From a virus (lineage: Duplodnaviria; Caudoviricetes), in IMG/VR virus record IMGVR_UViG_3300037067_016568, positions 32,001 through 96,000 of that record: DNA of 64,000 nt. One strand, 5' to 3'. Under the pieces are notes generated by a model, which saw only the letters and a program-made list of their open reading frames with translations, ran no database searches and was not told the DNA's origin. Below, one piece after another: positions 1-60,111 of this stretch. Position 1 is the first letter of the stretch. Each line of letters begins with the position of its first letter. A program made the position numbers and the translations under genes.

Positions 1-23
1 GCGGCGCGACCGGCGATGCCAAC

Positions 24-255
24 CCTGTAGTTACCTGGGAACGAACGCTATTCTCCATTCTATTCCGACCACTCCAGATGCAAGTTCTCCTGTAGTTACC
101 TGGGAACGAACGCTATTCTCCATTGATGCCGACCATTCGCTTTCGCAAGAGAACCTGTAGTTACCTGGGAACGAACGCTATTCTCCATTGCCGCTCATCA
201 GGGATGATGTTTTTGGGTACCTGTAGTTACCTGGGAACGAACGCTATTCTCCATT
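24..255 (-). CRISPR. CRISPR array 1: 4 identical 36-nt repeats, 3 full spacers of 29-30 nt; probably continues left of the window
   Basis: cctgtagttacctgggaacgaacgctattctccatt at 24-59, 89-124, 154-189, 220-255 with unique spacers. Minus orientation inferred from anti-repeat G-U wobbles, promoter motifs and gene direction. Confidence 0.95.
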
Positions 256-281
256 ACGCTATTAGGTGGTTCCCGGCACCT
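256..281 (-). promoter_or_regulatory. Conserved array-leader hairpin element (copy 1)
   Basis: taggtggttcccggcacct is identical at 263-281 and 1814-1832; stem AGGTG/CACCT; abuts the first repeat. Confidence 0.6.
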
Positions 282-894: not shown

Positions 895-1440
895 TTAATT
901 AGCTTCGAGTTCGGCAATCCGTGTTTGAAGTTCGGCAATCCGTGTTTGAAGTTCGGCAATTCGTGCTCGAAGCGCCTCATTCTCCGCTTCCAGGGTCTTA
1001 ATACGCGCCAAAAGCTGGTCCTGGACCGCCTGCATTGACGCCTTGATTTTGCGAGCTTCCTTATATGGATCAGCTGGCTTGGCCCGGCGACGACTACGTG
1101 GGGCGTCGGATTTCGTTTTGGCGAGCATGCCGTTATACATGTCGCGAAGCTTACCATTCTTCCATTGATATTCTTCCGGATAGTGCTTGAGCATCATCCG
1201 TAATTCGGAGAAGGTCAAGCAAAGGTCGATGACATACTCATCCAAGATGGCCAAGAGTTTGTTGTTGTCCAAGATCTCATTGTCGGCCCGAAAATCTGGA
1301 TCTTCATAGACGCTGTTCAGCAGAGTTGTCCGCCGATAGGCGTTGTGGCCGCTTGACTGCTGTAGCTTCCGGACTTGCTGTAAGAGCTTCTTGTACTGCT
1401 TTTCGCAGCGTGGCTGGGTTGGTGTGGTCGACCTCATCAA
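895..1440 (-). CDS. Hypothetical protein with C-terminal coiled coil
   Basis: AAGGAG RBS upstream; heptad repeat RIAELQT at the C-terminus. Confidence 0.8.
   Translation of the reverse strand: MMRSTTPTQPRCEKQYKKLLQQVRKLQQSSGHNAYRRTTLLNSVYEDPDFRADNEILDNNKLLAILDEYVIDLCLTFSELRMMLKHYPEEYQWKNGKLRDMYNGMLAKTKSDAPRSRRRAKPADPYKEARKIKASMQAVQDQLLARIKTLEAENEALRARIAELQTRIAELQTRIAELEAN
909..965. repeat. 21-nt tandem repeat (about 2.7 copies) encoding the heptad RIAELQT
   Basis: gttcggcaatccgtgtttgaa at 909-929 and 930-950, partial copy from 951. Confidence 0.9.
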
Positions 1441-1560
1441 TAGTTCTCCTTAGTCTTTTATGAAAAGCTGATAGTTGCGCACATTGACGACAACAAAATT
1501 TCTTGTTGCCGTTCAATGGCGTCTTACATATTGGACATTCCCCCTGTCCTGTAGTCCTGG

Positions 1561-1806
1561 CCTGTAGTCCTGTAGTTACCTGGGAACGAACGCTATTCTC
1601 CATTTTCGGCATCGGTGATCTCCCTGTAGTCCTGTAGTTACCTGGGAACGAACGCTATTCTCCATTTGCGGTTCTGTTCAGCGAGGAGGCTGTGGCCCTG
1701 TAGTCCTGTAGTTACCTGGGAACGAACGCTATTCTCTATTGCGACGTGCCATTACCGAATGCGATCTATGCCTGTAGTTACCTGGGAACAAACGTAATCC
1801 CACATT
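1561..1806 (-). CRISPR. CRISPR array 2: 4 repeats, 3 spacers; three repeats carry an extra 8-nt cctgtagt duplication
   Basis: Repeats at 1569-1604, 1631-1666, 1705-1740 (one mismatch) and 1771-1806 (degenerate); cctgtagt at 1561, 1623, 1697; unique spacers of 18, 30 and 30 nt. Confidence 0.93.
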
Positions 1807-1832
1807 TCGCTTTTAGGTGGTTCCCGGCACCT
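1807..1832 (-). promoter_or_regulatory. Conserved array-leader hairpin element (copy 2)
   Basis: Same 19-nt core as 263-281, at the same distance from the repeat. Confidence 0.6.
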
Positions 1833-2457: not shown

Positions 2458-3600
2458 TTATCTGTTGATTGTTACGTCGATATCGATCTTATTACATGCC
2501 CGTTGGATCAACGATTGCATTTGTCGCCAATCCCATCGAGTCGTTTCAGTGTTGCCAATGCGTCCTGCATATTCTAAATAGTAATCCGCAGGAGGAGCAA
2601 AGATAACAAGATGACCGATGCCATTTGTTGCCAGTAATCTTGTCACATCATTGGCAAGGTGGGTGCTCCAGGTTTTGATGAAATCACGCCACCGCCGCTC
2701 ATATTTCGCCTTGTCTGCAGCCGAAATATATTTCCTGGTCTTCTTACTCTCTTGAATATCCAAGGTATTTCGCGTGTGTTCAACATCCTCGCCGCGACGA
2801 AGGCGGAATATGGTTTTACCATTGAATCGGAAGGAGAATGGGCGACGTTGCGCCGCTAACAGAAATGCCGTCTTATTCTTGTCAAGCGGTACTTTCACCT
2901 TGGGAATAGAATGGCAAGGATAAGCAATTAATCTACCGTCGCGTTCCTTCAAGTCGAGTCCCTTTAAATCCCATTCACCCGCTGCAATTTTCCACAGCAT
3001 ATCGCGGACAGAATGTAGCCTATAGCTTTTGGTCTTAATGATGAATGTCATCAAACCATAGCCGTCGACGTTGACCTCAAGCTTCCAATCTTCATTCTTG
3101 CTCTGCGGAACGATGATTCGGCAGTCACGTTTATGAAACGGAATGCTACTTCGTTGAGACGACTGTAGGAGACCTCCTCGGCCCAAAAGGACTGTTATCC
3201 AGCGAGGATAAGCCGACTTATACCCATGTTTCTGCAGTATTCTCAACGCTTTCTCGGTTGCTAGCTTACAGTGCTTGTTCATCGAGGGATATGTAGCAGA
3301 CATGATTTCGTCAAGCTGCTGAGCCATTTCGGTACTGCATGGATCGACAGGGCACCGCGTACGGGGGCCAACGCGAGTCTCAGGCTCGTAAAGCCAGCGG
3401 CGATCTTGTTCTGCCCATTCACGAACGAGAAGATGATTGCCAGCTTCAAAATGAATTCGCAACCATGCTGACATAAAATCGTTGACGATTCTCTGAATAT
3501 CAGAAGCAAGAGTGCCGATGTACTTTTTGTGTGACTTATAGTCATCGTCACCGCCAAGTAAACTGATTCGCTTGTTCTTAACAACTCGAAAGTCGGCCAT
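2458..3600 (-). CDS. Cas12f/TnpB-like protein B, predicted nuclease-dead and C-terminally truncated (380 aa)
   Basis: Paralog of 3735-5096. RuvC-I position reads TAFLLAA (no Asp), RuvC-II reads LVIFAPP (no Glu). W-D-W-x-x-MQ helix then IDVTINR-stop; no Zn finger or RuvC-III; adjacent to CRISPR arrays. Confidence 0.75.
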   Translation of the reverse strand: MADFRVVKNKRISLLGGDDDYKSHKKYIGTLASDIQRIVNDFMSAWLRIHFEAGNHLLVREWAEQDRRWLYEPETRVGPRTRCPVDPCSTEMAQQLDEIMSATYPSMNKHCKLATEKALRILQKHGYKSAYPRWITVLLGRGGLLQSSQRSSIPFHKRDCRIIVPQSKNEDWKLEVNVDGYGLMTFIIKTKSYRLHSVRDMLWKIAAGEWDLKGLDLKERDGRLIAYPCHSIPKVKVPLDKNKTAFLLAAQRRPFSFRFNGKTIFRLRRGEDVEHTRNTLDIQESKKTRKYISAADKAKYERRWRDFIKTWSTHLANDVTRLLATNGIGHLVIFAPPADYYLEYAGRIGNTETTRWDWRQMQSLIQRACNKIDIDVTINR

Positions 3601-3613
3601 ATCGTCCTCTGTA

Positions 3614-3710
3614 GGTTAAAAAAGGTAACTCTGGCGAGAGCTAACACGGTACGGAATGCCCGCAGCTATTCTCGCCTTCGAGACGTACAGGACGCCTCAA
3701 TTAGTGATTC
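3614..3710 (-). ncRNA. Putative tracr/scout-like RNA, copy 1
   Basis: 74 nt (3625-3698) identical to 5575-5648. Hairpin GAGGCGU-CCUGU-ACGUCUC, second stem GGCGAG/CUCGCC, 3' AGUUACCU then U-tract; complementary to repeat 3' end; TGCTATAA box at about 3718-3726. Confidence 0.75.
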
Positions 3711-3734
3711 TGCAAACTTATAGCACAAAAACAA

Positions 3735-5096
3735 TTATCGATTAACTTCTTTTTTACGGGGCTTACCTCCTTGCCTAGCGATTACTTTCATCCCGGCTGC
3801 TGCTCCAACCGCTTCCAACTGCTGCTGCATGTGGTACCAATCCCAGGCCGTCGATTCATTACGGCCAATTTTTCCGACATTAGAGAGATAACGAGTATCT
3901 CGCCATTTACCGGTTGGCTGATATGTTACCAGTTGACCAACGCCCGCTTTAACACAGCGACCTATAACCTCTGCGGCCCAAGTGTTGTTGAAGGTTTTGG
4001 TCTGATTACGCCAATTGCGTTCCGACTTTCGCCGCCAGTTATGGACTTTACGACCATGGTTTTTACGCGCACTAGATGCATATTTGTACGATTCGCTTTT
4101 ACCGAACCGTTGAAGCGTCAAAGAACGACGAGCATGTTTAATGTGCCTGCAGCTTCGCAGTTTCATATGTGTCTTACCATCAATGCGAAGCATCACGCCA
4201 TGATATCGACCACCTGATACGACAGCCGTTTTCTTGCTATCAGAGGGGGCAACCACACCGGGCATCAAATAGCAGATATCCGCATACCACTTGCCGGTGT
4301 TTTCACACTTAATGATCTGCGAAGTGCCGAAAATGTATTCGCCAGACGTAATTTTCCACAACACCTTGCGAATAGGTGCTAAATGACGCCCGCCAGTCCG
4401 AAGTTTGAAAACCATGGGGCGTAGAGTTCTTTGGCCATCTACTTTTTCGTAACGAACAATCAACTTCCAAGGGTCATTATTACTTTTAGGGACGACGAAG
4501 TTGCTGTTAGCGGTGTAGAATGGAACCGGTTGTGGTCTGGAAAATTGTGAATATTCTCCATATCCACATAGGATCATAAACCAGCGCTTATATTTAGACT
4601 TCGTGGCCGGTGTGGAGAGGAGCGTACTACTAAGCCGCCTAGAAACAATACCAATCGGTTTAGTCCCTAAATTGCAGTGTTGAGTAGTCAGGCGTTTATA
4701 GATCTCATTCGCCATCTTGTTAGAATATGGCTGAACGGGGCATTTTGCACGTGGAGGGATTTTCACGTCGAAAGAGGGGAGTAACTCCTTCTTTCCTTTT
4801 CGCTTCTGAGCTTTCTGAGCCTTGTCCAATTCGCCGTATTTCTGTGCCCATTCCTTATCTTCTTGTATCCATTTACGAAGAGCAGTGGGAGAGCCAGCTT
4901 CAAGATGCAAGCTAAACCACTGACTATGAAAATCATTTGCGATTTGCTGCATTTGAAGCGATATCTTGGCGAGACGTTCTTTTTCCTCTGCAAAGCCGTC
5001 GTCAATACCACATAGCTGGACGCGAATAATCTTCGTAAGTCCTTCTGGCTTCTTTTTACGTGGTTTCTTTTCTGCCGGTTTCTTCAATTTACTCAC
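3735..5096 (-). CDS. Cas12f/TnpB-like protein A, predicted nuclease-dead and C-terminally truncated (453 aa)
   Basis: Basic protein with TKIIRVQL WED-like start and KWYADICY strand. RuvC-I reads TAVVSGG (no Asp); Arg/Lys-rich bridge helix; RuvC-II reads LVTYQP (no Glu); WDWYHMQQQLE..GMKV then ends; AGGAG RBS. Confidence 0.8.
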   Translation of the reverse strand: MSKLKKPAEKKPRKKKPEGLTKIIRVQLCGIDDGFAEEKERLAKISLQMQQIANDFHSQWFSLHLEAGSPTALRKWIQEDKEWAQKYGELDKAQKAQKRKGKKELLPSFDVKIPPRAKCPVQPYSNKMANEIYKRLTTQHCNLGTKPIGIVSRRLSSTLLSTPATKSKYKRWFMILCGYGEYSQFSRPQPVPFYTANSNFVVPKSNNDPWKLIVRYEKVDGQRTLRPMVFKLRTGGRHLAPIRKVLWKITSGEYIFGTSQIIKCENTGKWYADICYLMPGVVAPSDSKKTAVVSGGRYHGVMLRIDGKTHMKLRSCRHIKHARRSLTLQRFGKSESYKYASSARKNHGRKVHNWRRKSERNWRNQTKTFNNTWAAEVIGRCVKAGVGQLVTYQPTGKWRDTRYLSNVGKIGRNESTAWDWYHMQQQLEAVGAAAGMKVIARQGGKPRKKEVNR

Positions 5097-5135
5097 TATA
5101 GTCTCCTACACAAAATAAGCGGCTTTATTCAGGGG

Positions 5136-5552
5136 CCTGTAGTCCTGTAGTCACCTGGGAACGAACGCTATTCAACATTCACATCGGGCTTGTAGTCAAG
5201 CCTGTAGTTACCTGGGAACGAACGCTATTCAACATTATTGAGACAACTTAATCAATGATGTCCTGTAGTCACCTGGGAACGAACGCTATTCAACATTTAA
5301 AACTGTCCCGTCCCGTTTTGATATAGCCTGTAGTCACCTGGGAACGAACGCTATTCAACATTTCAGAAGCTGTGAAAGCTTCATCTTGGCACGCCTGTAG
5401 TTACCTGGGAACGAACGCTATTCAACATTCCTCGGCGATTTCGTCGGCTGTAATTGGCACCTGTAGTCACCTGGGAACGAACGCTATTCAACATTTCCCT
5501 TCGTCGTGATAATCAGCCTGTAGTCACCTGGGAACGAACGCTATTCAACATT
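5136..5552 (-). CRISPR. CRISPR array 3: 7 repeats of a variant type (…tattcaacatt; gtcacc or gttacc), 6 spacers of 21-31 nt
   Basis: Repeats start at 5144, 5201, 5262, 5327, 5394, 5460, 5517; extra cctgtagt at 5136-5143. Confidence 0.96.
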
Positions 5553-5564
5553 ACGCTAACGGGT

Positions 5565-5660
5565 GGTTAAAAAAGTAACTCTGGCGAGAGCTAACACGGT
5601 ACGGAATGCCCGCAGCTATTCTCGCCTTCGAGACGTACAGGACGCCTCTATTTGGTGATC
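5565..5660 (-). ncRNA. Putative tracr/scout-like RNA, copy 2, directly upstream of array 3
   Basis: Duplicate of 3614-3698; 3' tail reads AGUUACUU (G-U wobble variant). Confidence 0.75.
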
Positions 5661-5727
5661 ATAGTTTATCTGGACTGTTTTAGCATCACATTAATAGGTA
5701 GTTAACTTCGATTAATCTCTTGTGAAG

Positions 5728-5914
5728 CCTGTAGTCCTGTAGTTACCTGGGAACGAACGCTATTCTCCATTTCGTCTCCATTTACATTTTGAACGAACGC
5801 TATTCTCCATTGACGCTAAGGGCCACGTTATCGGAGCACCTGTAGTTACCTGGGAACGAACGCTATTCTCCATTCGGCTGTTATGAAAAGATATTGCAGA
5901 TCCTCCTGTAGTTA
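5728..5914 (-). CRISPR. CRISPR array 4: 2 full and 2 partial repeats, 3 spacers
   Basis: Full repeats 5736-5771 and 5839-5874; partial repeats 5791-5811 and 5905-5914; extra cctgtagt at 5728-5735. Confidence 0.88.
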
Positions 5915-5995: not shown

Positions 5996-6054
5996 TTTTA
6001 TAGCACGACGCTGGTATTAATTAATTAAATAGCCATATTTGTCGTGCTATAAAA
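5996..6054. promoter_or_regulatory. 14-bp inverted repeat, probable divergent promoter boxes (GTCGTGCTATAAAA)
   Basis: ttttatagcacgac 5996-6009 and gtcgtgctataaaa 6041-6054 at the strand switch; resembles an extended -10; near copy at 873-886. Confidence 0.65.
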
Positions 6055-22449: not shown

Positions 22450-24075
22450 TCAAGTTCGTCTGATGATGTAACACAATTTTTCACCGCCATATTTCTTATA
22501 ATATCCCTTCGCCTCTGCAAATTCCCGCTCAGTCATGCTCAAGCTCTTGGCTTTACCATATAAAGTCCGTTTGTGCATAACATAGCCTTGTTTATCGACA
22601 TACCAATAGTCTGCAGGAACGATGTGATGTAACTGAAAGTTGGCGGCTTTGTAAATCGTACCTTGATGCCCAACTGTTGTATCTGCGTAAGCTATAACTA
22701 GTTTACAATCAATTTGTTTAAGGGCTCTTTTAATAAACCAACTGGCGAGATTCTTTTTATGATAGGACGGATGAATACACAATCTAGATAGTTCGCGAAT
22801 TTCTCCATCACACAAACCAAACTGTGATGCTGTGTTCTGTCGTAGGGGTGGACTAAAGACAACGCAAGCTATTAATTGATTATCGAGATAAACACCAAAC
22901 GCTTTACCACCTCGATTTTTCCCAAGGTAATGATAAAGATCTAAAAATTCTCTCACCTCAGCGAAGCTTATTTCTTTGATGTATAATTTACTAAATTCAA
23001 ATTGTTTGGTTTCGATATTCAACCCTAGTTTCAACTTCAATCTATCTAATACTCGATCCTTACAATAGAATTCATGTTCCCAGATATACATTATTTCATA
23101 TTCTGGGAAGTATCGATTAATATATGTGAATTTAGACTGGTCATTTCGTTCAGCTTTGGAGAGCGAATGCCAATAATCTCCTTGACATTCAATCAACAAT
23201 TTCTTATTACCATTGATATGTGGAACAACACAATCAAAAACGTAATATCCAATTCTCGTTTCTTCTCCTTCCTTGAAATATTCTATATGCAGATCATCCA
23301 GGAATGCATATAACATTTTTTGAATAGATGAGATCTGGCACTTTTGAGAAGCACGAGCTGCAGCTATTTTCTCACGATATTTCGAATTTAGCCAATTAGC
23401 TTTGGATGCTATCGCCAATTTTTCATTGTAATGTAATGTGGTATAAGTTTTGTTTTTATATTCTGGTGATGTTTGAATTATAGCTATTTGTTCTTCATTA
23501 ATCTTTGGTGCCTTGATTTTGGCTATTTTCTTCGTACCTCTCAATTTATTTGATTTTTTTGCTGGTGTTTGTTGTCTTACTGATATTTGTTGCTTGCGCC
23601 GTTCAGAGATCAATCTTGATTGGATAGCCCTGAACTCCTTGTTATTCCATTTTGCGACAGATGCAGCCAAAGCCTTAGTGATATGCTTTTTACTGGCTTC
23701 TGCTTGAAATATAGCAGATCTATCTTTATCAAAAATTATACCATTCTCTCTACCCGCTTTAGAAACCAAATGAAAAGATATTCCAAGATCTGATGCAATT
23801 TGAACTCTTGAAATCTTATTAGCATTCGCTTTAATATATGCCACTTGTTCTGGCGTAGCTGGCTTCGACTTATAATTTCTTATAGTGTCTCGATGTTCTT
23901 TGGTTGGAGAATATTTGATCGGCGCAATCCCTAATTTTCTAGCACGCACACCAATAGCTCTAGCGCAGATGCTTGGTAAGCATTTCTCACTAAATTCCTT
24001 TATAGTAAGAAATGGCAGATAGGTAATTATTAAATGGTCATATTTTGACCAGTCTACAGGTTTTCCAGATGGCAT
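22450..24075 (-). CDS. Fusion of DNA-binding repeats, Vsr/DUF559-like endonuclease and Mom-like GNAT domain (homing-endonuclease-like)
   Basis: FD..IECQGDYWH..IWEHE; ELSRLC..YADTTVGHQGTIYKAANF; AT-richer than neighbours. Confidence 0.7.
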   Translation of the reverse strand: MPSGKPVDWSKYDHLIITYLPFLTIKEFSEKCLPSICARAIGVRARKLGIAPIKYSPTKEHRDTIRNYKSKPATPEQVAYIKANANKISRVQIASDLGISFHLVSKAGRENGIIFDKDRSAIFQAEASKKHITKALAASVAKWNNKEFRAIQSRLISERRKQQISVRQQTPAKKSNKLRGTKKIAKIKAPKINEEQIAIIQTSPEYKNKTYTTLHYNEKLAIASKANWLNSKYREKIAAARASQKCQISSIQKMLYAFLDDLHIEYFKEGEETRIGYYVFDCVVPHINGNKKLLIECQGDYWHSLSKAERNDQSKFTYINRYFPEYEIMYIWEHEFYCKDRVLDRLKLKLGLNIETKQFEFSKLYIKEISFAEVREFLDLYHYLGKNRGGKAFGVYLDNQLIACVVFSPPLRQNTASQFGLCDGEIRELSRLCIHPSYHKKNLASWFIKRALKQIDCKLVIAYADTTVGHQGTIYKAANFQLHHIVPADYWYVDKQGYVMHKRTLYGKAKSLSMTEREFAEAKGYYKKYGGEKLCYIIRRT

Positions 24076-43868: not shown

Positions 43869-46312
43869 CCGTAAATAGCCCTGCCGGGTAATACATCTTC
43901 TATAATCATTCGGCACAACATTCGGTCGAATTCCATGAATATCTTGGATTCGACCGAATCACTACCACAACTCTCTGTTACCTGCTCCCACAATCGATGG
44001 GCTGCGGCTTTGAATTTGAGGGTGGCTTCTTTGCGTTGTTTGCAGATGTAGGCATTCGAGACGGACGGTATAGGATTTCCTTCATCATCCGTTGTTTCAA
44101 ATATGTCATTCCACAAATAAACATTCGATTGTCTGCCTGCCTTTGCGTCAGCTAAAGGCGGATATCCAGCCTCGGCCCAACGTGATTTACCACCTTGCGC
44201 ATCGATCTCCGGATCGTCGGGCGTACCTCGTTCTGGATAATCACTGATACCATAGAGTCGCAGTAGCATTCGATACTGATGCATTGGCACTGAGTTAGAT
44301 GATGGCTTAAGCTTGATGTCCTGCTTGGCGATCTTTTGCAACATTCTGATTTCTTTGCGAATGTCGCCGAACTTGCCATCTGTCTGTATGGTACCAGCAA
44401 TCGCTTCAAGAAGTTCATTAATTTCTTCTCGCCACTCACCTAAGCTAGAATCAACGTCTCTCTCAATATCGGCAAAGTCTCTTCTAGCCTTTGTAGTGTC
44501 TAAACCTTGCGATTCAGCAGAGACATAATCATCAACTGCCGTAGCAAGTGCATCAAGAAGTTTGCTGGCCTCTGCTGCATTCTCTCTCTTTTCCTTGGAC
44601 GGATCGAAGTTCGGTGAAACTTGCTCGATTGCCATTCTCAGCACTTCACGAACTTCAGGCGACTGCAATTTTGCGATATCGTCATCTGGTCGCGTAATTC
44701 CTTGACGCTCATACTCCTTACCTGTCTTTTTGCTGCGTACAGTCAGGCCAGTCTTAGATGTTCCTCTCACATTTACCTCTTCTCTGATTCTCAATACCTC
44801 TTGTTGTGCGTAGCTCATCAAGATAAACTGCAATAAAGCATAAGGATCGGCTGATTCCAACGCTTTCTCAAGTCTGGCCCTCATTTCTTTGAGGCCGACA
44901 AACCCAGGCGACTCTGGTAGGTCTTCTTGTGGTTGCTCATAGGCAACATTGTGCATCTTTCCACTTAGTTTGCCGGTATGCTCTTTCCACAATGTTTGAG
45001 CTTCATCAATATATTTCTTGGCATTAATAGCCAAATGAGGGTCACTCTTCGCCTTCTCGGCTAATGTTCGTTGATTTCTAAGGAACTTTTCAGCATCCTT
45101 AAACGCCTTCAAAGTACCATACTCCCTGGGTTTCTTTCCGACCGCCCCTTGTGTAGTCAAACCAGGACTCAGGCGATCCTTTTCTTCTTGCCCTATCCTA
45201 TCGAATATCTTATCCGCATTAACTTGTTCTTGTCGTATTTCTCCCACGTCCCCTGTTTTTATAGCACGAATGATATTGTCCCTTAGTTCGAACAACTCAG
45301 GAGGAAAATCGCCAAATGGATGTAATGGTCCCGGTGGCGCTTTGACACGCCCGTCACCAGCTACACGAAGAAGATCCTTAATATCGTCGTCACTAGTTCC
45401 ATAAGGAATCTTACCACACTTACTACATCTCTCCTTAATCTTTACCGGCTCTCCGTTCTTGTCCCTTACTATTTTGTCTTTTTCATCTCTGACTACCACA
45501 TCAACAAATCCAGTACCCTTACAACGAGGACATATGTTAATGACGTCGAATGCTTTTTCGACAGCTTTGGCGTCATCGTCTAATGGCCTGCCACTTCCAG
45601 CATCTCTTAATGCCTTGTTTATGACAGATTGGACACTTCTTTTGAGTCCTCTGACTCTACGATATTCGTCACCATAGCCAGCTGGTGCTCCTGCCTTCAT
45701 AGCCTGCTCTATGGCATGTCCTACGAACCCGGTAAATCTAACATTAGGTCTTGCCTCATCCTTTGGAAGCATCTGTAGTATAGCTATGGCTCCCTGCTGG
45801 ATAGAATTATCGACATCAGATTCGTCATACTTACCATGAGTTGCCTTGGCAGCTCTCACCACTGGCTGTTTGGTGGCTATGCGATGAAGCCCGCCGCGCT
45901 CATCTTTATCTATGCTCTTGTGCATCATCGCCAACAATACTTCGCCGGGTGCCCATGGTCTGATGCCATCATGCTCCTTGCTATAAGGATTTACTCCGTT
46001 GAATGATATCTCATCAGCTTCTTTTGTTGAAGAAGTAATACCTTTTTTACCTGTGTCTTTTGGGCCATACGGAACATTATTCTTGTAGTACATCGGCGGT
46101 ATATAATCATTCCCTTTTACATATTCCTCCCATCCAACACAAGGACCCCTACAGTTCCTCAGAGCCGACATTTTGTCGGCTTGATTGGACATATCAACAA
46201 CTGTAGGATCGTAGACATATTTCGGATCATTAGGGTATGATATCCGTGTTCTTCTCTTCTTTTTCTTTTTAGCCTCGTTGAGGGCTATATTTATTCGTTT
46301 TAAGATATCCAT
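43865..46312 (-). CDS. Divergent sigma-70-like protein with large insertions and a CxxCxGxG zinc finger
   Basis: Region 2-like DVDNSIQQGAIAILQML..VRFTGFVGHAIEQAM; region 4-like QYRMLLRLYGI..VSNAYICKQRKEATLKFK; CPRCKGTG/CSKCG. Confidence 0.5.
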   Translation of the reverse strand: MDILKRINIALNEAKKKKKRRTRISYPNDPKYVYDPTVVDMSNQADKMSALRNCRGPCVGWEEYVKGNDYIPPMYYKNNVPYGPKDTGKKGITSSTKEADEISFNGVNPYSKEHDGIRPWAPGEVLLAMMHKSIDKDERGGLHRIATKQPVVRAAKATHGKYDESDVDNSIQQGAIAILQMLPKDEARPNVRFTGFVGHAIEQAMKAGAPAGYGDEYRRVRGLKRSVQSVINKALRDAGSGRPLDDDAKAVEKAFDVINICPRCKGTGFVDVVVRDEKDKIVRDKNGEPVKIKERCSKCGKIPYGTSDDDIKDLLRVAGDGRVKAPPGPLHPFGDFPPELFELRDNIIRAIKTGDVGEIRQEQVNADKIFDRIGQEEKDRLSPGLTTQGAVGKKPREYGTLKAFKDAEKFLRNQRTLAEKAKSDPHLAINAKKYIDEAQTLWKEHTGKLSGKMHNVAYEQPQEDLPESPGFVGLKEMRARLEKALESADPYALLQFILMSYAQQEVLRIREEVNVRGTSKTGLTVRSKKTGKEYERQGITRPDDDIAKLQSPEVREVLRMAIEQVSPNFDPSKEKRENAAEASKLLDALATAVDDYVSAESQGLDTTKARRDFADIERDVDSSLGEWREEINELLEAIAGTIQTDGKFGDIRKEIRMLQKIAKQDIKLKPSSNSVPMHQYRMLLRLYGISDYPERGTPDDPEIDAQGGKSRWAEAGYPPLADAKAGRQSNVYLWNDIFETTDDEGNPIPSVSNAYICKQRKEATLKFKAAAHRLWEQVTESCGSDSVESKIFMEFDRMLCRMIIEDVLPGRAIYG

Positions 46313-57615: not shown

Positions 57616-60111
57616 TTAGAATCCTTGACGTCGCAATCGCCGTCTTGGCCCGATGTCGATATCGACTTCTTCCTCTGGGGCTGCACCAAATTCCATACCA
57701 GGTGTCGCAGTTCTGCGCTGGCCACAGCCATAACAGACACCATGCTCATCGGGCGATTCTGACGATCCGCAATTTGGACACATCCGACCCTCTGGATCAA
57801 AGAAGCCAGGTGCTTCAGGATTGTGGGCTTGCTCATATTCAGGCTCATCGTCATCGATAATATCGTCTTCGAATTCGCCCTCAACATTGTCCATATCGTC
57901 AGAATCGAAGCCACGATAAAATGCTTCGCGTTCCGGCGTATGGATTTGGGAACCCCACGCCTCAGAAACCGTTTGGAAAGCACGCTTTGCAATTGGCCAT
58001 GCGAACGGCCCGACAACAGCTGCACCCCAATTGTGATTCTTAACTCTGCAGGCGATTCCTTCTGCTACAACGCGATCGGCAAAAGCATTGGCGACCATAC
58101 CTGTCTTGAACAGAATCTTGCCCTCGCAGAAAATCGGATCACGCTTCCTTGTCTCGGCCAGCGGCAATCTGTGGCGATGAATGATGGCCTTTTGGTGAGG
58201 AATGGAGTACAACGCCTCCAAAACGATATTCTTACCACTCATTACCTGCAGCAGCTCTTCAATTACTGTCAAGGCATCGGTGAGTGATGTATAAACGCCA
58301 GATGCATCCTCTGTCTTGACACCAAATCGTATCGTGTATTTTCCAGCACGACCAATTTTCTTAGCACCATGACTGATCGCTTCTTTGGCTACGCGCGATA
58401 GCCGCATAATATTCTCTTTCATGGTACCGCTGCCACCGCCAAAGGCAGCTTGACCGCCAGTATTCTTCATCTTCGGCTTCAACGGCGTTTGCTTTCCGGG
58501 AACTTCTGTAGTAATGCCATCCGAAGCAGTTCCGGATGTGCTTTCACATGTCTCTTGGGGAGGTATTTTGGTCCCCAATTCTCCCTGTCCCTTCTTTGTT
58601 TTATCGCTTGTGAAGTGCCCATGTGAATCAGCGCTAGCACCTTCAGCATTGACGCTACCCCATCCATTGCTTTCATGCAACAGATCACACAACATACAGC
58701 CGCTTTCATCAAGAATAGTGCCACACCGAGCACATCGAGATTCCGATCTCACTATCTTTTGAGATGGGGCCTCGGCACTTTTTTCGTCTGCCTCTCTCTC
58801 CTTCTCATCTGCGGCACCGGTAGATATGTCTTTGCCACGGCCTTTCATAGCAGTAGCAGTGGCATTCCCCTTAACACCCGATGCTATTTTCTGCATCAGA
58901 TTGCCGCTCTCCGGCGACGTGACCTCTTCGCCGGGGATTTCCTCTGTACATTCCATGCACTCGTCTTCCTCTTCCTGAGCACCATCATCTTCAGGGCCGA
59001 TATCGATATCGCCTTCGGCTGCTTCATCTTCTGGCGTTTCAAGCTGTTCGTTGTGGCCAGCAATTAAATTGGCAGCTCTTTCAAAGTCATCGCCGATAGC
59101 TTGAAAGACGTCGGCCAGGTCATCTGGTGTGCCGCCCTCAATATCAACGATTTCAGCCCCGATATCATCTTCAGGAGCTTCGATTTCACCGCCTTCGATT
59201 TCACCGCCTTCGATTTCACCGCCTTCGATTTCAGGAGGGATCTCATCATCCTCGCTGACCGGAATATCTGCGACGGCTCCAGAGCTAACCATCTCGGTTA
59301 TAGGGCGTGGTTGCCAGAATTTACCACTTGCATCGTTGCCCTCATAGAACATGAACTTTCGACTTGCAGCCATTAAATTCTGCAAATGTTGTTCTGACAA
59401 CATCGTTTGCACACCATGAGCCTGGCATAACTGCTGGAAATCCTCCAGGCAGACATAAGACGAATTCGTGCTATAATTTTCGAACAGACCCAGGAGATCG
59501 ACACTATCACCTTCCATTATGCTGGCAATATTGTCGAGAGACCATTCTTCAGCCATCCGATTTTGGCTGCCCTTGACGGTCTCGAATTGACCACCTTTGT
59601 TCTTCTGCATGGAGTTCTGGCCGAGTTCAGACCCCATCGTACCGATTGGGGTCGTGATGCCATCACTGGCCATTCCGGCAGCAATATTCATAGTCTCAAA
59701 TGTACCACCAGTATTCTTCTGTCTGGTCTTGAGATTCATGTCCTTGATCTGGGTAGTAATGCCGTCAGTGGCTTCTCCAGACTTGCTGTCGCCAAACTCA
59801 TCAAAGCCGCCGGTATTCTTCTGCTTGCCGCCGAGCTTATCAGTTTTACCACCCATTTTAGTCATGAAGTCGCCCTTGACTCCCTTAGCATCTTGGACTT
59901 CTTCTGAAATGCGTGATGTTGCCATTGCGAACTCCTGTAGTTTAATGGGTGCCTGGATATCTTGGCACTCTGGATCAAGCTCGTTTAATACCCTTTTGTC
60001 TTGCTGTCCGGACTTCTTAACAGTCCGCTCAGGATGACCCATTGGGTTTATCTCATCCTTCTCATTTTTGTCCGCATCAGCAGCATTAGGGACGTTTCGC
60101 GGTTTGTTCAT
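57616..60111 (-). CDS. Large acidic, low-complexity protein (head scaffold/internal-protein-like)
   Basis: Repeats DGITT..KNTGG and (EIEGG)3; many xxE sites; two Zn ribbons. Confidence 0.65.
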   Translation of the reverse strand: MNKPRNVPNAADADKNEKDEINPMGHPERTVKKSGQQDKRVLNELDPECQDIQAPIKLQEFAMATSRISEEVQDAKGVKGDFMTKMGGKTDKLGGKQKNTGGFDEFGDSKSGEATDGITTQIKDMNLKTRQKNTGGTFETMNIAAGMASDGITTPIGTMGSELGQNSMQKNKGGQFETVKGSQNRMAEEWSLDNIASIMEGDSVDLLGLFENYSTNSSYVCLEDFQQLCQAHGVQTMLSEQHLQNLMAASRKFMFYEGNDASGKFWQPRPITEMVSSGAVADIPVSEDDEIPPEIEGGEIEGGEIEGGEIEAPEDDIGAEIVDIEGGTPDDLADVFQAIGDDFERAANLIAGHNEQLETPEDEAAEGDIDIGPEDDGAQEEEDECMECTEEIPGEEVTSPESGNLMQKIASGVKGNATATAMKGRGKDISTGAADEKEREADEKSAEAPSQKIVRSESRCARCGTILDESGCMLCDLLHESNGWGSVNAEGASADSHGHFTSDKTKKGQGELGTKIPPQETCESTSGTASDGITTEVPGKQTPLKPKMKNTGGQAAFGGGSGTMKENIMRLSRVAKEAISHGAKKIGRAGKYTIRFGVKTEDASGVYTSLTDALTVIEELLQVMSGKNIVLEALYSIPHQKAIIHRHRLPLAETRKRDPIFCEGKILFKTGMVANAFADRVVAEGIACRVKNHNWGAAVVGPFAWPIAKRAFQTVSEAWGSQIHTPEREAFYRGFDSDDMDNVEGEFEDDIIDDDEPEYEQAHNPEAPGFFDPEGRMCPNCGSSESPDEHGVCYGCGQRRTATPGMEFGAAPEEEVDIDIGPRRRLRRQGF
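59178..59233. repeat. 15-nt tandem repeat encoding EIEGG
   Basis: cttcgatttcaccgc, about 3.5 copies. Confidence 0.9.

What the first reader, a model, noticed from the sequence alone, without database searches (positions are those of the whole stretch)
2458..5096. Both effectors lost the same parts and end at nearly the same point: possible heterodimer
Seen: both are intact ORFs with RBSs. They share blocks (QxIxNDFxSxWxxxHxEAG, RxxCPVxPxS, YxRW, IR/VRxxLWKI, WDWxxMQ) yet are highly diverged. Both lack acidic residues at the RuvC-I and RuvC-II positions and stop shortly after the post-RuvC-II helix and strand. Parallel loss with maintained ORFs argues for selected function rather than decay. 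Known: several Cas12f enzymes act as asymmetric homodimers on one guide. Inference: the paralogs may have specialised into the two protomers, or have different PAM/array preferences.
Basis: partly seen in the sequence, partly recalled or inferred. Interest (0 to 1): 0.8.

Follow-up and report, generated by a model that had tools for sequence, protein, structure and literature searches.

The report
Paired nuclease-dead Cas12f genes in phage
A giant phage carries two diverged, intact copies of a nuclease-dead miniature Cas12f next to one shared guide-RNA scaffold and small CRISPR arrays; several indirect lines suggest, but do not prove, that the two copies became the two unlike halves of one RNA-guided DNA-binding dimer.

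Summary
Window 2458-3600(-) (A, 380 aa) and 3735-5096(-) (B, 453 aa) are intact paralogs (30% identity, E 2e-61) with a Cas12f fold. Both lack acidic RuvC-I/II residues, the Zn ribbon and RuvC-III.

"Parallel loss" is wrong. The top 163 of 400 representative relatives all show the same truncation and dead RuvC. This is the published dCas12f family, and A and B inherited the state.

A and B are sister clades from one duplication. Single-gene phage relatives are the next outgroup. All seven loci with context carry B then A, and a complete 364-kb phage has exactly two copies. dN/dS is 0.07-0.12 for both.

Both share one ~85-nt tracrRNA whose anti-repeat covaries with the repeat.

Evidence for a heterodimer is indirect:
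- The complex model scores 0.72 against a best control of 0.00, at the canonical REC-REC interface. This cannot separate hetero- from homodimers.
- Each paralog has lost different family-invariant residues. A misses 7-9 of 23; no single-copy relative misses more than 5.
- One symmetric contact shows complementary changes.
- The B model matches protomer .1 and the A model protomer .2.

I put the heterodimer at about 0.5. Targets are unknown. First-stage notes on this same stretch proposed the same idea; none had been followed up.

The parts
3735..5096 (-). Paralog B (453 aa): nuclease-dead, C-terminally truncated Cas12f (dCas12f). It keeps most ancestral family motifs and has a B-clade-specific Lys/Arg-rich N-terminal tail (KKPRKKKP). 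Proposed protomer .1.
   Evidence: AsCas12f phmmer E 4e-9. PADLOC Cas12u3/Cas12f E 2e-13/2e-11. AF2 pLDDT 93; Foldseek 8j12_A E 1e-20. VIA 9n9c_A Z 22.7, rmsd 5.5, 333 aligned, and chain A is the best chain in every Cas12f entry.
2458..3600 (-). Paralog A (380 aa): the more derived dCas12f copy. It lacks the family-invariant YRYAsSArKGHGR loop and the basic N-tail, has a shortened WED hairpin, QP changed to AP, and a 4-residue lid deletion. Proposed protomer .2.
   Evidence: BLASTP to B E 2e-61. AF2 pLDDT 93.7; Foldseek 8j3r_B E 9e-15. VIA 8j12_B Z 21.2, rmsd 7.6, against chain A rmsd about 10. Misses 7-9 of 23 near-invariant family columns.
3614..3698 (-). tracrRNA copy 1, between B and A and directly 5' of A's RBS. 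It has a P1 hairpin with loop CCUGU, nested P2/P3 stems, a 3' anti-repeat AGUUACCU and a U6 tract.
   Evidence: 84-95% conserved in every related locus although the proteins are 40-55% identical. Consensus fold has 4 pairs with compensatory changes. The anti-repeat covaries with the repeat: GTTACC/GGTAAC, GTCACC/GGTGAC, CTTGCC/GGCAAG.
5565..5648 (-). tracrRNA copy 2, immediately 5' of array 3, which is followed by gene B.
   Evidence: 98% identical to copy 1.
5144..5552 (-). CRISPR array 3: 7 repeats of 36 nt, the variant whose gene-sense 5' end is AATGTTGAA. Transcribed in gene sense toward B.
5736..5914 (-). CRISPR array 4 (irregular, 2-4 repeat units), upstream of tracr copy 2.
1569..1832 (-). 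CRISPR array 2 (4 repeats) with a conserved leader-proximal motif.
1..281 (-). CRISPR array 1: 4 repeats inside the window, and 10 in all because it continues upstream of the window.
3718..3727 (-). TGTGCTATAA, a candidate phage promoter motif ahead of tracr copy 1 and gene A.
   Evidence: 14 hits with up to 1 mismatch in the window against 5.9 expected; 0 of 100 shuffles reach 14. Its function is inferred only.

Best explanation
A and B are two subunits of a phage-encoded, CRISPR-array-fed, nuclease-dead Cas12f (dCas12f) system. One duplication of an ancestral single dCas12f gene took place in the ancestor of a group of jumbo phages. By analogy with every solved Cas12f and dCas12f, the ancestral product worked as an asymmetric homodimer on one guide RNA. 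After the duplication the two copies most likely divided the two unlike protomer roles. B kept the ancestral motifs and gained a basic N-terminal tail, and would be protomer .1, which binds the TAM, the guide and the target. A shed motifs that only protomer .1 needs, and would be protomer .2, which binds the scaffold. The B:A heterodimer would assemble through the REC alpha1 helix and the loop after alpha5, on one tracrRNA:crRNA duplex. That duplex is made from the shared 85-nt tracrRNA and the 13-nt 3' handle of the repeat. The complex binds complementary DNA without cutting it, acting as a roadblock or repressor on still unidentified non-self targets. Shown: homology, fold, dead RuvC, the single duplication, conserved synteny, purifying selection, and tracr:repeat covariation. 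Inferred: heterodimer formation, the role assignment, and repression as the output.
For: Family and fold.
Single duplication: the A clade (support 100) and B clade (99) are sisters (99), with single-gene phage forms as the next outgroup.
Synteny: B then A in the window, L003, L004, L007 and L008, and on contigs of 167,790, 68,068 and 41,105 bp judged by shared contig lengths. A CheckV-complete 363,885-bp phage has exactly two copies.
Selection: dN/dS is 0.07-0.12 for A, for B and for the single-gene forms, in both the REC/WED and RuvC halves.
One RNA type for both proteins.
Solved Cas12f and dCas12f are asymmetric dimers on one gRNA with a REC-REC interface (PMC12259091; bioRxiv 10.1101/2023.07.03.547593).
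Complex model of B+A: ipSAE 0.72, best of 3 controls 0.00. This mark was reached by 58 of 80 solved complexes and 2 of 110 mismatched pairs. The runs agree in at least 74% of contacts, and partner pLDDT is at least 80. The interface lies on homologous elements of both chains (B50-71 and 164-186; A36-60 and 127-148), the same elements as in AsCas12f.
Reciprocal degeneration: of 108 family-conserved columns, 19 are lost only in A and 8 only in B. In the 23 columns that are at least 90% conserved, A members miss 7-9, B members 1-4, the single-gene forms 0-2, and 58 other members a median of 1 and at most 5. In the 45 columns at least 80% conserved, B misses 10-16 against a median of 4 and a maximum of 10.
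Complementary change at a symmetric contact: ancestral His59/Tyr65 survives as His59(B)-Tyr/Phe65(A), a predicted contact. The mirror pair became Ala59(A)/Gln65(B).
Conformer match: the B model fits chain A and the A model fits chain B of solved dimers.
Against: No direct evidence of binding. The complex pass may come from memory of solved Cas12f homodimers. The interface is quasi-symmetric (24 of about 27 positions are homologous on both chains), so A:A and B:B would probably score as well; I could not run them because the cap is one job. Interface identity between A and B (39%) is not significantly above the rest of the protein (29%, p 0.18). The conformer match rests on single-chain AF2 domain orientations, and Z differences of about 1 count as ties. 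B's losses at the strictest threshold lie within the family range. No fused B-A protein was found (weak evidence). A's changes in WED/REC would equally fit a new TAM specificity. Targets and output are unknown.
Confidence: 0.5

Rival explanations
1. A and B are two independent homodimeric effectors. They draw on the same tracrRNA and crRNA pool but differ in TAM/PAM preference, expression timing or downstream effect. B's basic tail is one candidate difference.
For: A and B are strongly diverged in the REC/WED segments that recognise the PAM in AsCas12f. Each gene has its own upstream tracr copy. Single-gene relatives show that one protein can suffice. Both keep the dimer-interface core Q50, N54, D55, W60, H64, G178, G180.
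Against: A has lost 7-9 of 23 near-invariant family residues, including the whole loop around the 100%-conserved Gly. No single-copy member misses more than 5. That is hard to reconcile with A filling both protomer roles alone. Since the interface core is conserved in both and the genes are co-located, mixed dimers would be hard to avoid. No second tracr or repeat-handle type has co-evolved.
Confidence: 0.25
2. B is the working effector, as a homodimer. A is a derived regulator: it caps B, competes for tracr:crRNA, or helps process or load guide RNA, without being part of the DNA-bound complex.
For: Divergence is asymmetric: the A stem branch is 0.50 against 0.29 for B, and A alone loses the KGHGR loop, the QP motif and part of the lid. 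B is within the family range at the strictest conservation threshold.
Against: A's RuvC half is as constrained as B's (omega 0.116 in both), and its whole fold is retained with pLDDT 93.7. B also shows excess loss at the 80% threshold. There is a complementary change at the shared contact.
Confidence: 0.2
3. One or both genes are decaying remnants of a Cas12f nuclease system.
For: The catalytic residues and the C-terminal third are missing.
Against: All orthologs are intact, dN/dS is 0.07-0.12, the truncated form is conserved in at least 400 representative proteins, and solved members of the family are functional.
Confidence: 0.02

Closest known systems
dCas12f (exapted nuclease-dead Cas12f homologs; Hoffmann et al., Nature 2026, PMC13472631; structures 9n9c/9n9m, PMC12259091)
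   Same: Same protein family: profile hits and fold match, 9n9c_A Z 22.7 for B. Same C-terminal truncation removing part of RuvC, loss of the RuvC acids, and a conserved scaffold RNA next to the gene. The solved member is an asymmetric dimer on one gRNA with a REC-REC interface. The paper also mentions a cluster near CRISPR arrays that is not linked to rpoE.
   Different: This system is phage-encoded, in jumbo phages. It has two diverged paralogs in tandem instead of one gene. It uses a separate tracrRNA plus multi-spacer arrays rather than a chimeric single gRNA. No ECF sigma factor was found in the held 51% of the genome. By sequence it is closer to AsCas12f (E 3e-37) than to the solved Fta dCas12f (E 4e-17).
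Cas12f / type V-F nucleases (AsCas12f 8j12, Un1Cas12f 7c7l)
   Same: REC-WED-RuvC fold. tracrRNA:crRNA dual guide with the anti-repeat at the tracr 3' end. Asymmetric dimer architecture through REC alpha1 and the loop after alpha5. CRISPR arrays of 36-nt repeats.
   Different: No RuvC-I/II acids, no Zn ribbon/TNB, no RuvC-III, so it cannot be a nuclease. Cas12f uses two copies of one protein, whereas here there are two genes. No cas1/cas2 was found.
TldR (TnpB-like nuclease-dead repressors; bioRxiv 10.1101/2023.11.30.569447)
   Same: Miniature RuvC-dead, C-terminally truncated RNA-guided DNA binders. Some are phage-encoded and act as repressors. This is the closest functional analogy for the presumed output.
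   Different: TldRs derive from TnpB and use a fixed omega-RNA-like guide. TnpB itself is generally described as working as a monomer (my own knowledge, not checked here). The proteins here are nested within Cas12f relatives and use tracrRNA plus CRISPR arrays.

Membership tests
Cas12f (type V-F nuclease) | Intact RuvC catalytic triad (D-E-D) | tested here: not met
   B has Ser294 and Tyr392-Gln393. A has Leu and Phe-Ala. The RuvC-III segment is absent.
Cas12f (type V-F nuclease) | C-terminal Zn ribbon / TNB domain | tested here: not met
   Both proteins end 1-10 residues after the last RuvC strand. No CxxC...CxxC in any of 163 family members.
Cas12f (type V-F nuclease) | REC-WED-RuvC fold of the Cas12f type | tested here: met
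   Foldseek 8j12_A E 1e-20 (B) and 8j3r_B E 9e-15 (A). VIA Z 21-22 over 310-360 residues.
Cas12f (type V-F nuclease) | tracrRNA pairing with the CRISPR repeat | tested here: met
   The 3' anti-repeat covaries with the repeat handle in three states across loci. The structured scaffold has 4 compensatory pairs. Expression was not tested.
Cas12f (type V-F nuclease) | Dimer on one guide RNA | tested here: inconclusive
   The B+A model scores 0.72 against a best control of 0.00, at the canonical interface. This may reflect likeness to solved homodimers. There was no RNA in the model, and A:A and B:B were not run.
dCas12f (Hoffmann et al. 2026) | Cas12f-related protein with a C-terminal truncation removing part of RuvC and with mutated catalytic residues | tested here: met
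   description of the family.
dCas12f (Hoffmann et al. 2026) | Sequence and structure relatedness to solved Fta dCas12f | tested here: met
   The family profile hits 9n9c_A at E 3.6e-17. The B model against 9n9c_A gives Z 22.7, rmsd 5.5. A family member, P0020, lies 3 kb from an ECF sigma gene.
dCas12f-sigmaE subtype | Operonic ECF sigma factor (rpoE) with a CTD extension | tested here: not met
   No Sigma70_r2 hit, and only a sub-threshold r4_2 hit, in the held 184,768 bp. The record is about 51% complete, so a distal copy is not excluded.
dCas12f-sigmaE subtype | Chimeric single gRNA with no tracrRNA | tested here: not met
   Here a separate tracr works with multi-spacer arrays. One fused tracr-handle-guide unit exists in L003.
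TldR | TnpB-derived, with an omega-RNA-type fixed guide and no CRISPR array | tested here: not met
   The best relatives are Cas12f, not TnpB (8h1j Z 13-15 against Cas12f Z 21-23). Arrays and a tracr are present.

The most novel reading that the evidence does not exclude
This would be the first natural heterodimeric type V effector. A homodimeric miniature Cas12f-type protein duplicated in jumbo phages, and the copies became obligate, non-interchangeable protomers: B reads the TAM, guide and target, and A holds the scaffold. They form a nuclease-free RNA-guided DNA binder that the phage programs from many mini-arrays against its host or competing elements.
Probability: 0.45. Interest if true: 0.75.

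Novelty: new variant of a known kind. Interest (0 to 1): 0.62.

Why it matters
Cas12f and dCas12f are the only class 2 effectors that need two copies of the protein doing two different jobs on one guide. A natural system in which those two jobs sit in separate genes would show which residues each protomer role really needs. It would be a clean case of a homomer evolving into a heteromer in an RNA-guided machine. It would also give engineers a way to modify or fuse cargo to only one protomer of a very small (380 + 453 aa) DNA-binding complex. Separately, it extends the recently described dCas12f family to jumbo phages, and to a form that still uses a tracrRNA and real spacer arrays. That form is the missing intermediate between Cas12f immunity systems and the single-guide dCas12f transcription factors.

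Tried and rejected
- Pfam, PHROGs and Rfam gave nothing for the proteins or the RNA.
- phmmer of A alone against the PDB found nothing. Only the family profile links it to solved structures.
- tblastn of B against the INPHARED phage records gave no match.
- The look-up of encoding contigs failed for the JGI-only homologs, or returned contigs without DNA. Co-occurrence on the 167,790, 68,068 and 41,105 bp contigs therefore rests on matching contig lengths only.
- A sliding duplex-energy scan for an anti-repeat was uninformative. The anti-repeat came from conservation and covariation instead.
- Spacer targets were not found. There was no protospacer in the phage's own 184,768 bp, in the related loci, or in the phage database. 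Two 22-nt seeds gave 0 hits in viral contigs. In genome contigs one seed gave 0 hits and one gave two hits, in a Pseudomonas MAG and a Stellaceae MAG. Those two stop matching after the seed (24 of 30 identical), so I treat them as chance.
- No fused B-A protein of 794 aa or more was found (weak evidence).
- 'Parallel loss' was rejected in favour of shared ancestry.
- Decay was rejected.
Full report
WHAT IS THERE. The window is bases 32,001-96,000 of a 184,768-bp IMG/VR virus record that CheckV rates about 51% complete, which makes it a jumbo phage. On the minus strand lie two intact ORFs: B at 3735-5096 (453 aa, GTG start preceded by AGGAG) and A at 2458-3600 (380 aa, ATG start preceded by AGAGGA).

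B hits AsCas12f directly (E 4e-9) and the PADLOC Cas12u3/Cas12f models. A profile of the family hits AsCas12f at E 3e-37 and the solved "nuclease-deactivated Cas12f" 9n9c at 4e-17. AF2 models of both proteins are confident (pLDDT 93.0 and 93.7), and their best structural matches are Cas12f and dCas12f chains, with Foldseek E 1e-20 and 9e-15 and VIA Z 21-23.

In the alignments the RuvC-I Asp is Ser in B and Leu in A. The RuvC-II Glu region is Tyr-Gln in B and Phe-Ala in A. Both chains stop just after the strand that follows the post-RuvC-II helix, so they have no Zn ribbon and no RuvC-III.

THE LOSSES ARE INHERITED, NOT PARALLEL. A profile search of 1.84 billion representative proteins finds 400 relatives (185 at E below 1e-30), almost all 400-490 aa long. 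I examined the best 163:
- None has a CxxC...CxxC ribbon.
- One has an acidic residue at the RuvC-I column.
- Gln occupies the RuvC-II-adjacent column in 121, as part of a conserved "QP" motif.
- All end a median of 17 residues after the last strand.

This is the dCas12f family of Hoffmann et al. (Nature 2026, PMC13472631). That paper describes C-terminally truncated, RuvC-dead Cas12f homologs. Most are linked to an ECF sigma factor, and a separate cluster lies near CRISPR arrays. One family member here, P0020, does lie 3 kb from an ECF sigma gene. The shared truncation therefore carries no information about A and B specifically.

ONE DUPLICATION, KEPT EVERYWHERE.
- In a maximum-likelihood tree the A clade (support 100) and the B clade (99) are sisters (99). 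Two single-gene phage forms (L005, L006) are the next outgroup, followed by P0016, P0018 and P0017. The A stem (0.50) is longer than the B stem (0.29).
- B followed by A, in that order, is found in the window, L003, L004, L007 and L008. By matching contig lengths it is also present on three more JGI contigs.
- A CheckV-complete 363,885-bp phage has exactly two copies. The single-gene forms sit on fragments of much smaller phages, in the order tracr, gene, array, one of them with 13 regular repeats.
- All orthologs are intact. dN/dS is 0.07-0.12 for A, B and the single-gene forms, with no relaxation in either the REC/WED or the RuvC half. Decay is excluded.

ONE GUIDE-RNA SYSTEM FOR BOTH PROTEINS. 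The phage carries 29 copies of a 36-nt repeat in five small arrays, four of them around the two genes. An element of about 85 nt occurs twice in the window (3614-3698 and 5565-5648, 98% identical). It is 84-95% conserved in every related locus, although the proteins there are only 40-55% identical. It is always in gene sense and always sits just upstream of an effector gene or an array.

The element folds into a hairpin plus two nested stems, with four compensatory pairs. Its 3' end is complementary to the repeat and changes together with it: GTTACC with GGTAAC in the window, GTCACC with GGTGAC in L003, L004, L006 and L008, and CTTGCC with GGCAAG in L005. The hairpin loop CCUGU(A) complements the invariant repeat end (U)ACAGG.

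This is a tracrRNA, and the arrays are read in gene sense. There is no second tracr type and no second repeat handle, so A and B must use the same RNA. No Cas1 and no sigma factor were found in the held half of the genome.

HETERODIMER OR NOT. Solved Cas12f and dCas12f are asymmetric dimers on one guide. They are held together by REC alpha1 and the loop after alpha5. Protomer .1 binds the TAM and most of the RNA, and protomer .2 plays a lesser role that differs from it. Four indirect lines point to a B:A heterodimer.

1. Complex model. It supports binding: ipSAE 0.72 with the best of 3 controls at 0.00. That mark was reached by 58 of 80 solved complexes and 2 of 110 mismatched pairs. The runs agree in at least 74% of contacts, and the partner's pLDDT is at least 80. 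The contacts are exactly the canonical elements, B50-71 and 164-186 against A36-60 and 127-148. However, 24 of about 27 interface positions are homologous on both chains. The model therefore shows that the Cas12f interface is kept, not that A prefers B, and the pass may come from memory of solved homodimers.

2. Reciprocal loss of conserved residues. Of 108 family-conserved columns, 19 are lost only in A and 8 only in B. In the 23 columns that are at least 90% conserved, A members miss 7-9, B members 1-4 and the single-gene forms 0-2; 58 other members miss a median of 1 and at most 5. At the 80% level B misses 10-16 against a family maximum of 10. A has deleted the whole loop around a 100%-conserved Gly (the KGHGR motif). 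It has also shortened a WED hairpin and changed the TGGR, FCGS, CY and QP motifs. B has changed the 97%-conserved Gly of FCGS and a conserved Pro. Each clade then conserves its own version. This is what division of the two protomer roles predicts. It is hard to reconcile with A filling both roles alone.

3. Complementary change at one symmetric contact. The ancestral pair His59/Tyr65 (B numbering) survives as His59 in most B members against Tyr or Phe in A, which is a predicted contact. The mirror pair has changed on both sides, to Ala in A and Gln, Leu or Arg in B.

4. Conformer match. The single-chain model of B fits chain A (protomer .1) best in every Cas12f entry (for example 9n9c_A, Z 22.7, rmsd 5.5). 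The model of A fits chain B (protomer .2) best wherever chain B is complete (8j12_B, Z 21.2, rmsd 7.6, against about 10 Å for the chain A matches). The Z gaps are about 1, so this is only a hint.

Against the heterodimer: none of this is a binding measurement. A's REC/WED changes would also fit a new TAM specificity. No fused B-A protein exists in the searched collection. I put the specialised heterodimer at about 0.5, two independent effectors at 0.25, and A as a regulator of B at 0.2.

FUNCTION. Without RuvC acids the complex can only bind DNA. By analogy with TldR and with the array-linked dCas12f cluster, the likely output is repression or a roadblock. The spacers (18-38 nt, mean GC 0.52 against 0.44 for the genome) match nothing in the phage itself, in the related loci or in the databases I could scan. 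The targets are therefore presumably host DNA or competing elements, and they remain unknown.

NOVELTY. The protein family, its truncation and its dimeric nature are published. Three things are new here: the jumbo-phage setting, the retention of a true tracrRNA with multi-spacer arrays, and above all the conserved tandem pair of diverged paralogs. I found no paper describing phage dCas12f or paired or heterodimeric Cas12f. Unchecked first-stage notes on this same stretch proposed the same heterodimer idea and the same tracr pairing. I had reached the tracr reading independently and tested it here.

Noticed in passing
L003:11488-11600: In one tracr copy the 3' anti-repeat runs straight into the last 10 nt of a repeat and then into a guide-like sequence (..AGAGTCACC / TGACTACAGG / AGCGGCATCG..). 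This is a natural single-guide-like fusion, and it resembles the proposed route from dual RNA to the chimeric gRNAs of dCas12f-sigmaE systems.
   Followed up: partly
L006:8438-10673 and L005:589-2204: Single-gene relatives have the order tracr, dCas12f, array, with 13 and about 4 repeats. They sit on fragments CheckV rates 34% and 18% complete (23.4 and 8.3 kb), so they come from phages far smaller than the jumbo phages that carry the pair.
   Followed up: partly
outside the window: G000:C1:123672-124054: A fifth array of the same repeat (about 6 units, irregular spacing) lies 86 kb from the effector genes.
   Followed up: no
window 1540-1580, 1621-1640, 5131-5152, 5726-5745: The repeat's 8-nt end (plus-strand CCTGTAGT, gene-sense ACTACAGG) is duplicated next to several repeats, and spacer lengths are irregular (18-38 nt). 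No Cas1 was found in the held genome. This suggests the arrays are built or reshuffled by recombination rather than by canonical adaptation.
   Followed up: partly
window 3718-3727(-), 5998-6007(-), 6043-6052(+), 45259-45268(-), 59467-59476(+) and others: A TGTGCTATAA-like motif is enriched: 14 hits against 5.9 expected, and 0 of 100 shuffles reach 14. One copy lies just upstream of tracr copy 1, and a divergent pair flanks 6000-6050. It is a candidate phage promoter.
   Followed up: partly
window 5144-5552 versus 24-255, 1569-1740, 5736-5874: There are two repeat variants that differ only in the gene-sense 5' part (AATGTTGAA versus AATGGAGAA). The first is confined to the array directly upstream of B, and L003 shows the same arrangement. 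The tracr-paired 3' handle is the same in both, so the meaning is unclear.
   Followed up: partly
window 22450-24075(-): A 541-aa protein has a Mom-family domain (E 7e-24) plus weak GNAT and REase_MTES_1575 hits. It is probably a DNA-modification (anti-restriction) enzyme.
   Followed up: no
window 908-970 within ORF 895-1440(-): Three tandem 21-nt repeats encode a repeated heptad (RIAELQT) in a coiled-coil protein that lies between arrays 1 and 2. The genes interleaved with the arrays have no family hits.
   Followed up: no
protein P0008 (B-type homolog): It carries a 32-residue Cys- and Pro-rich insertion right after the dead RuvC-I strand, which no other B-type member has.
   Followed up: no
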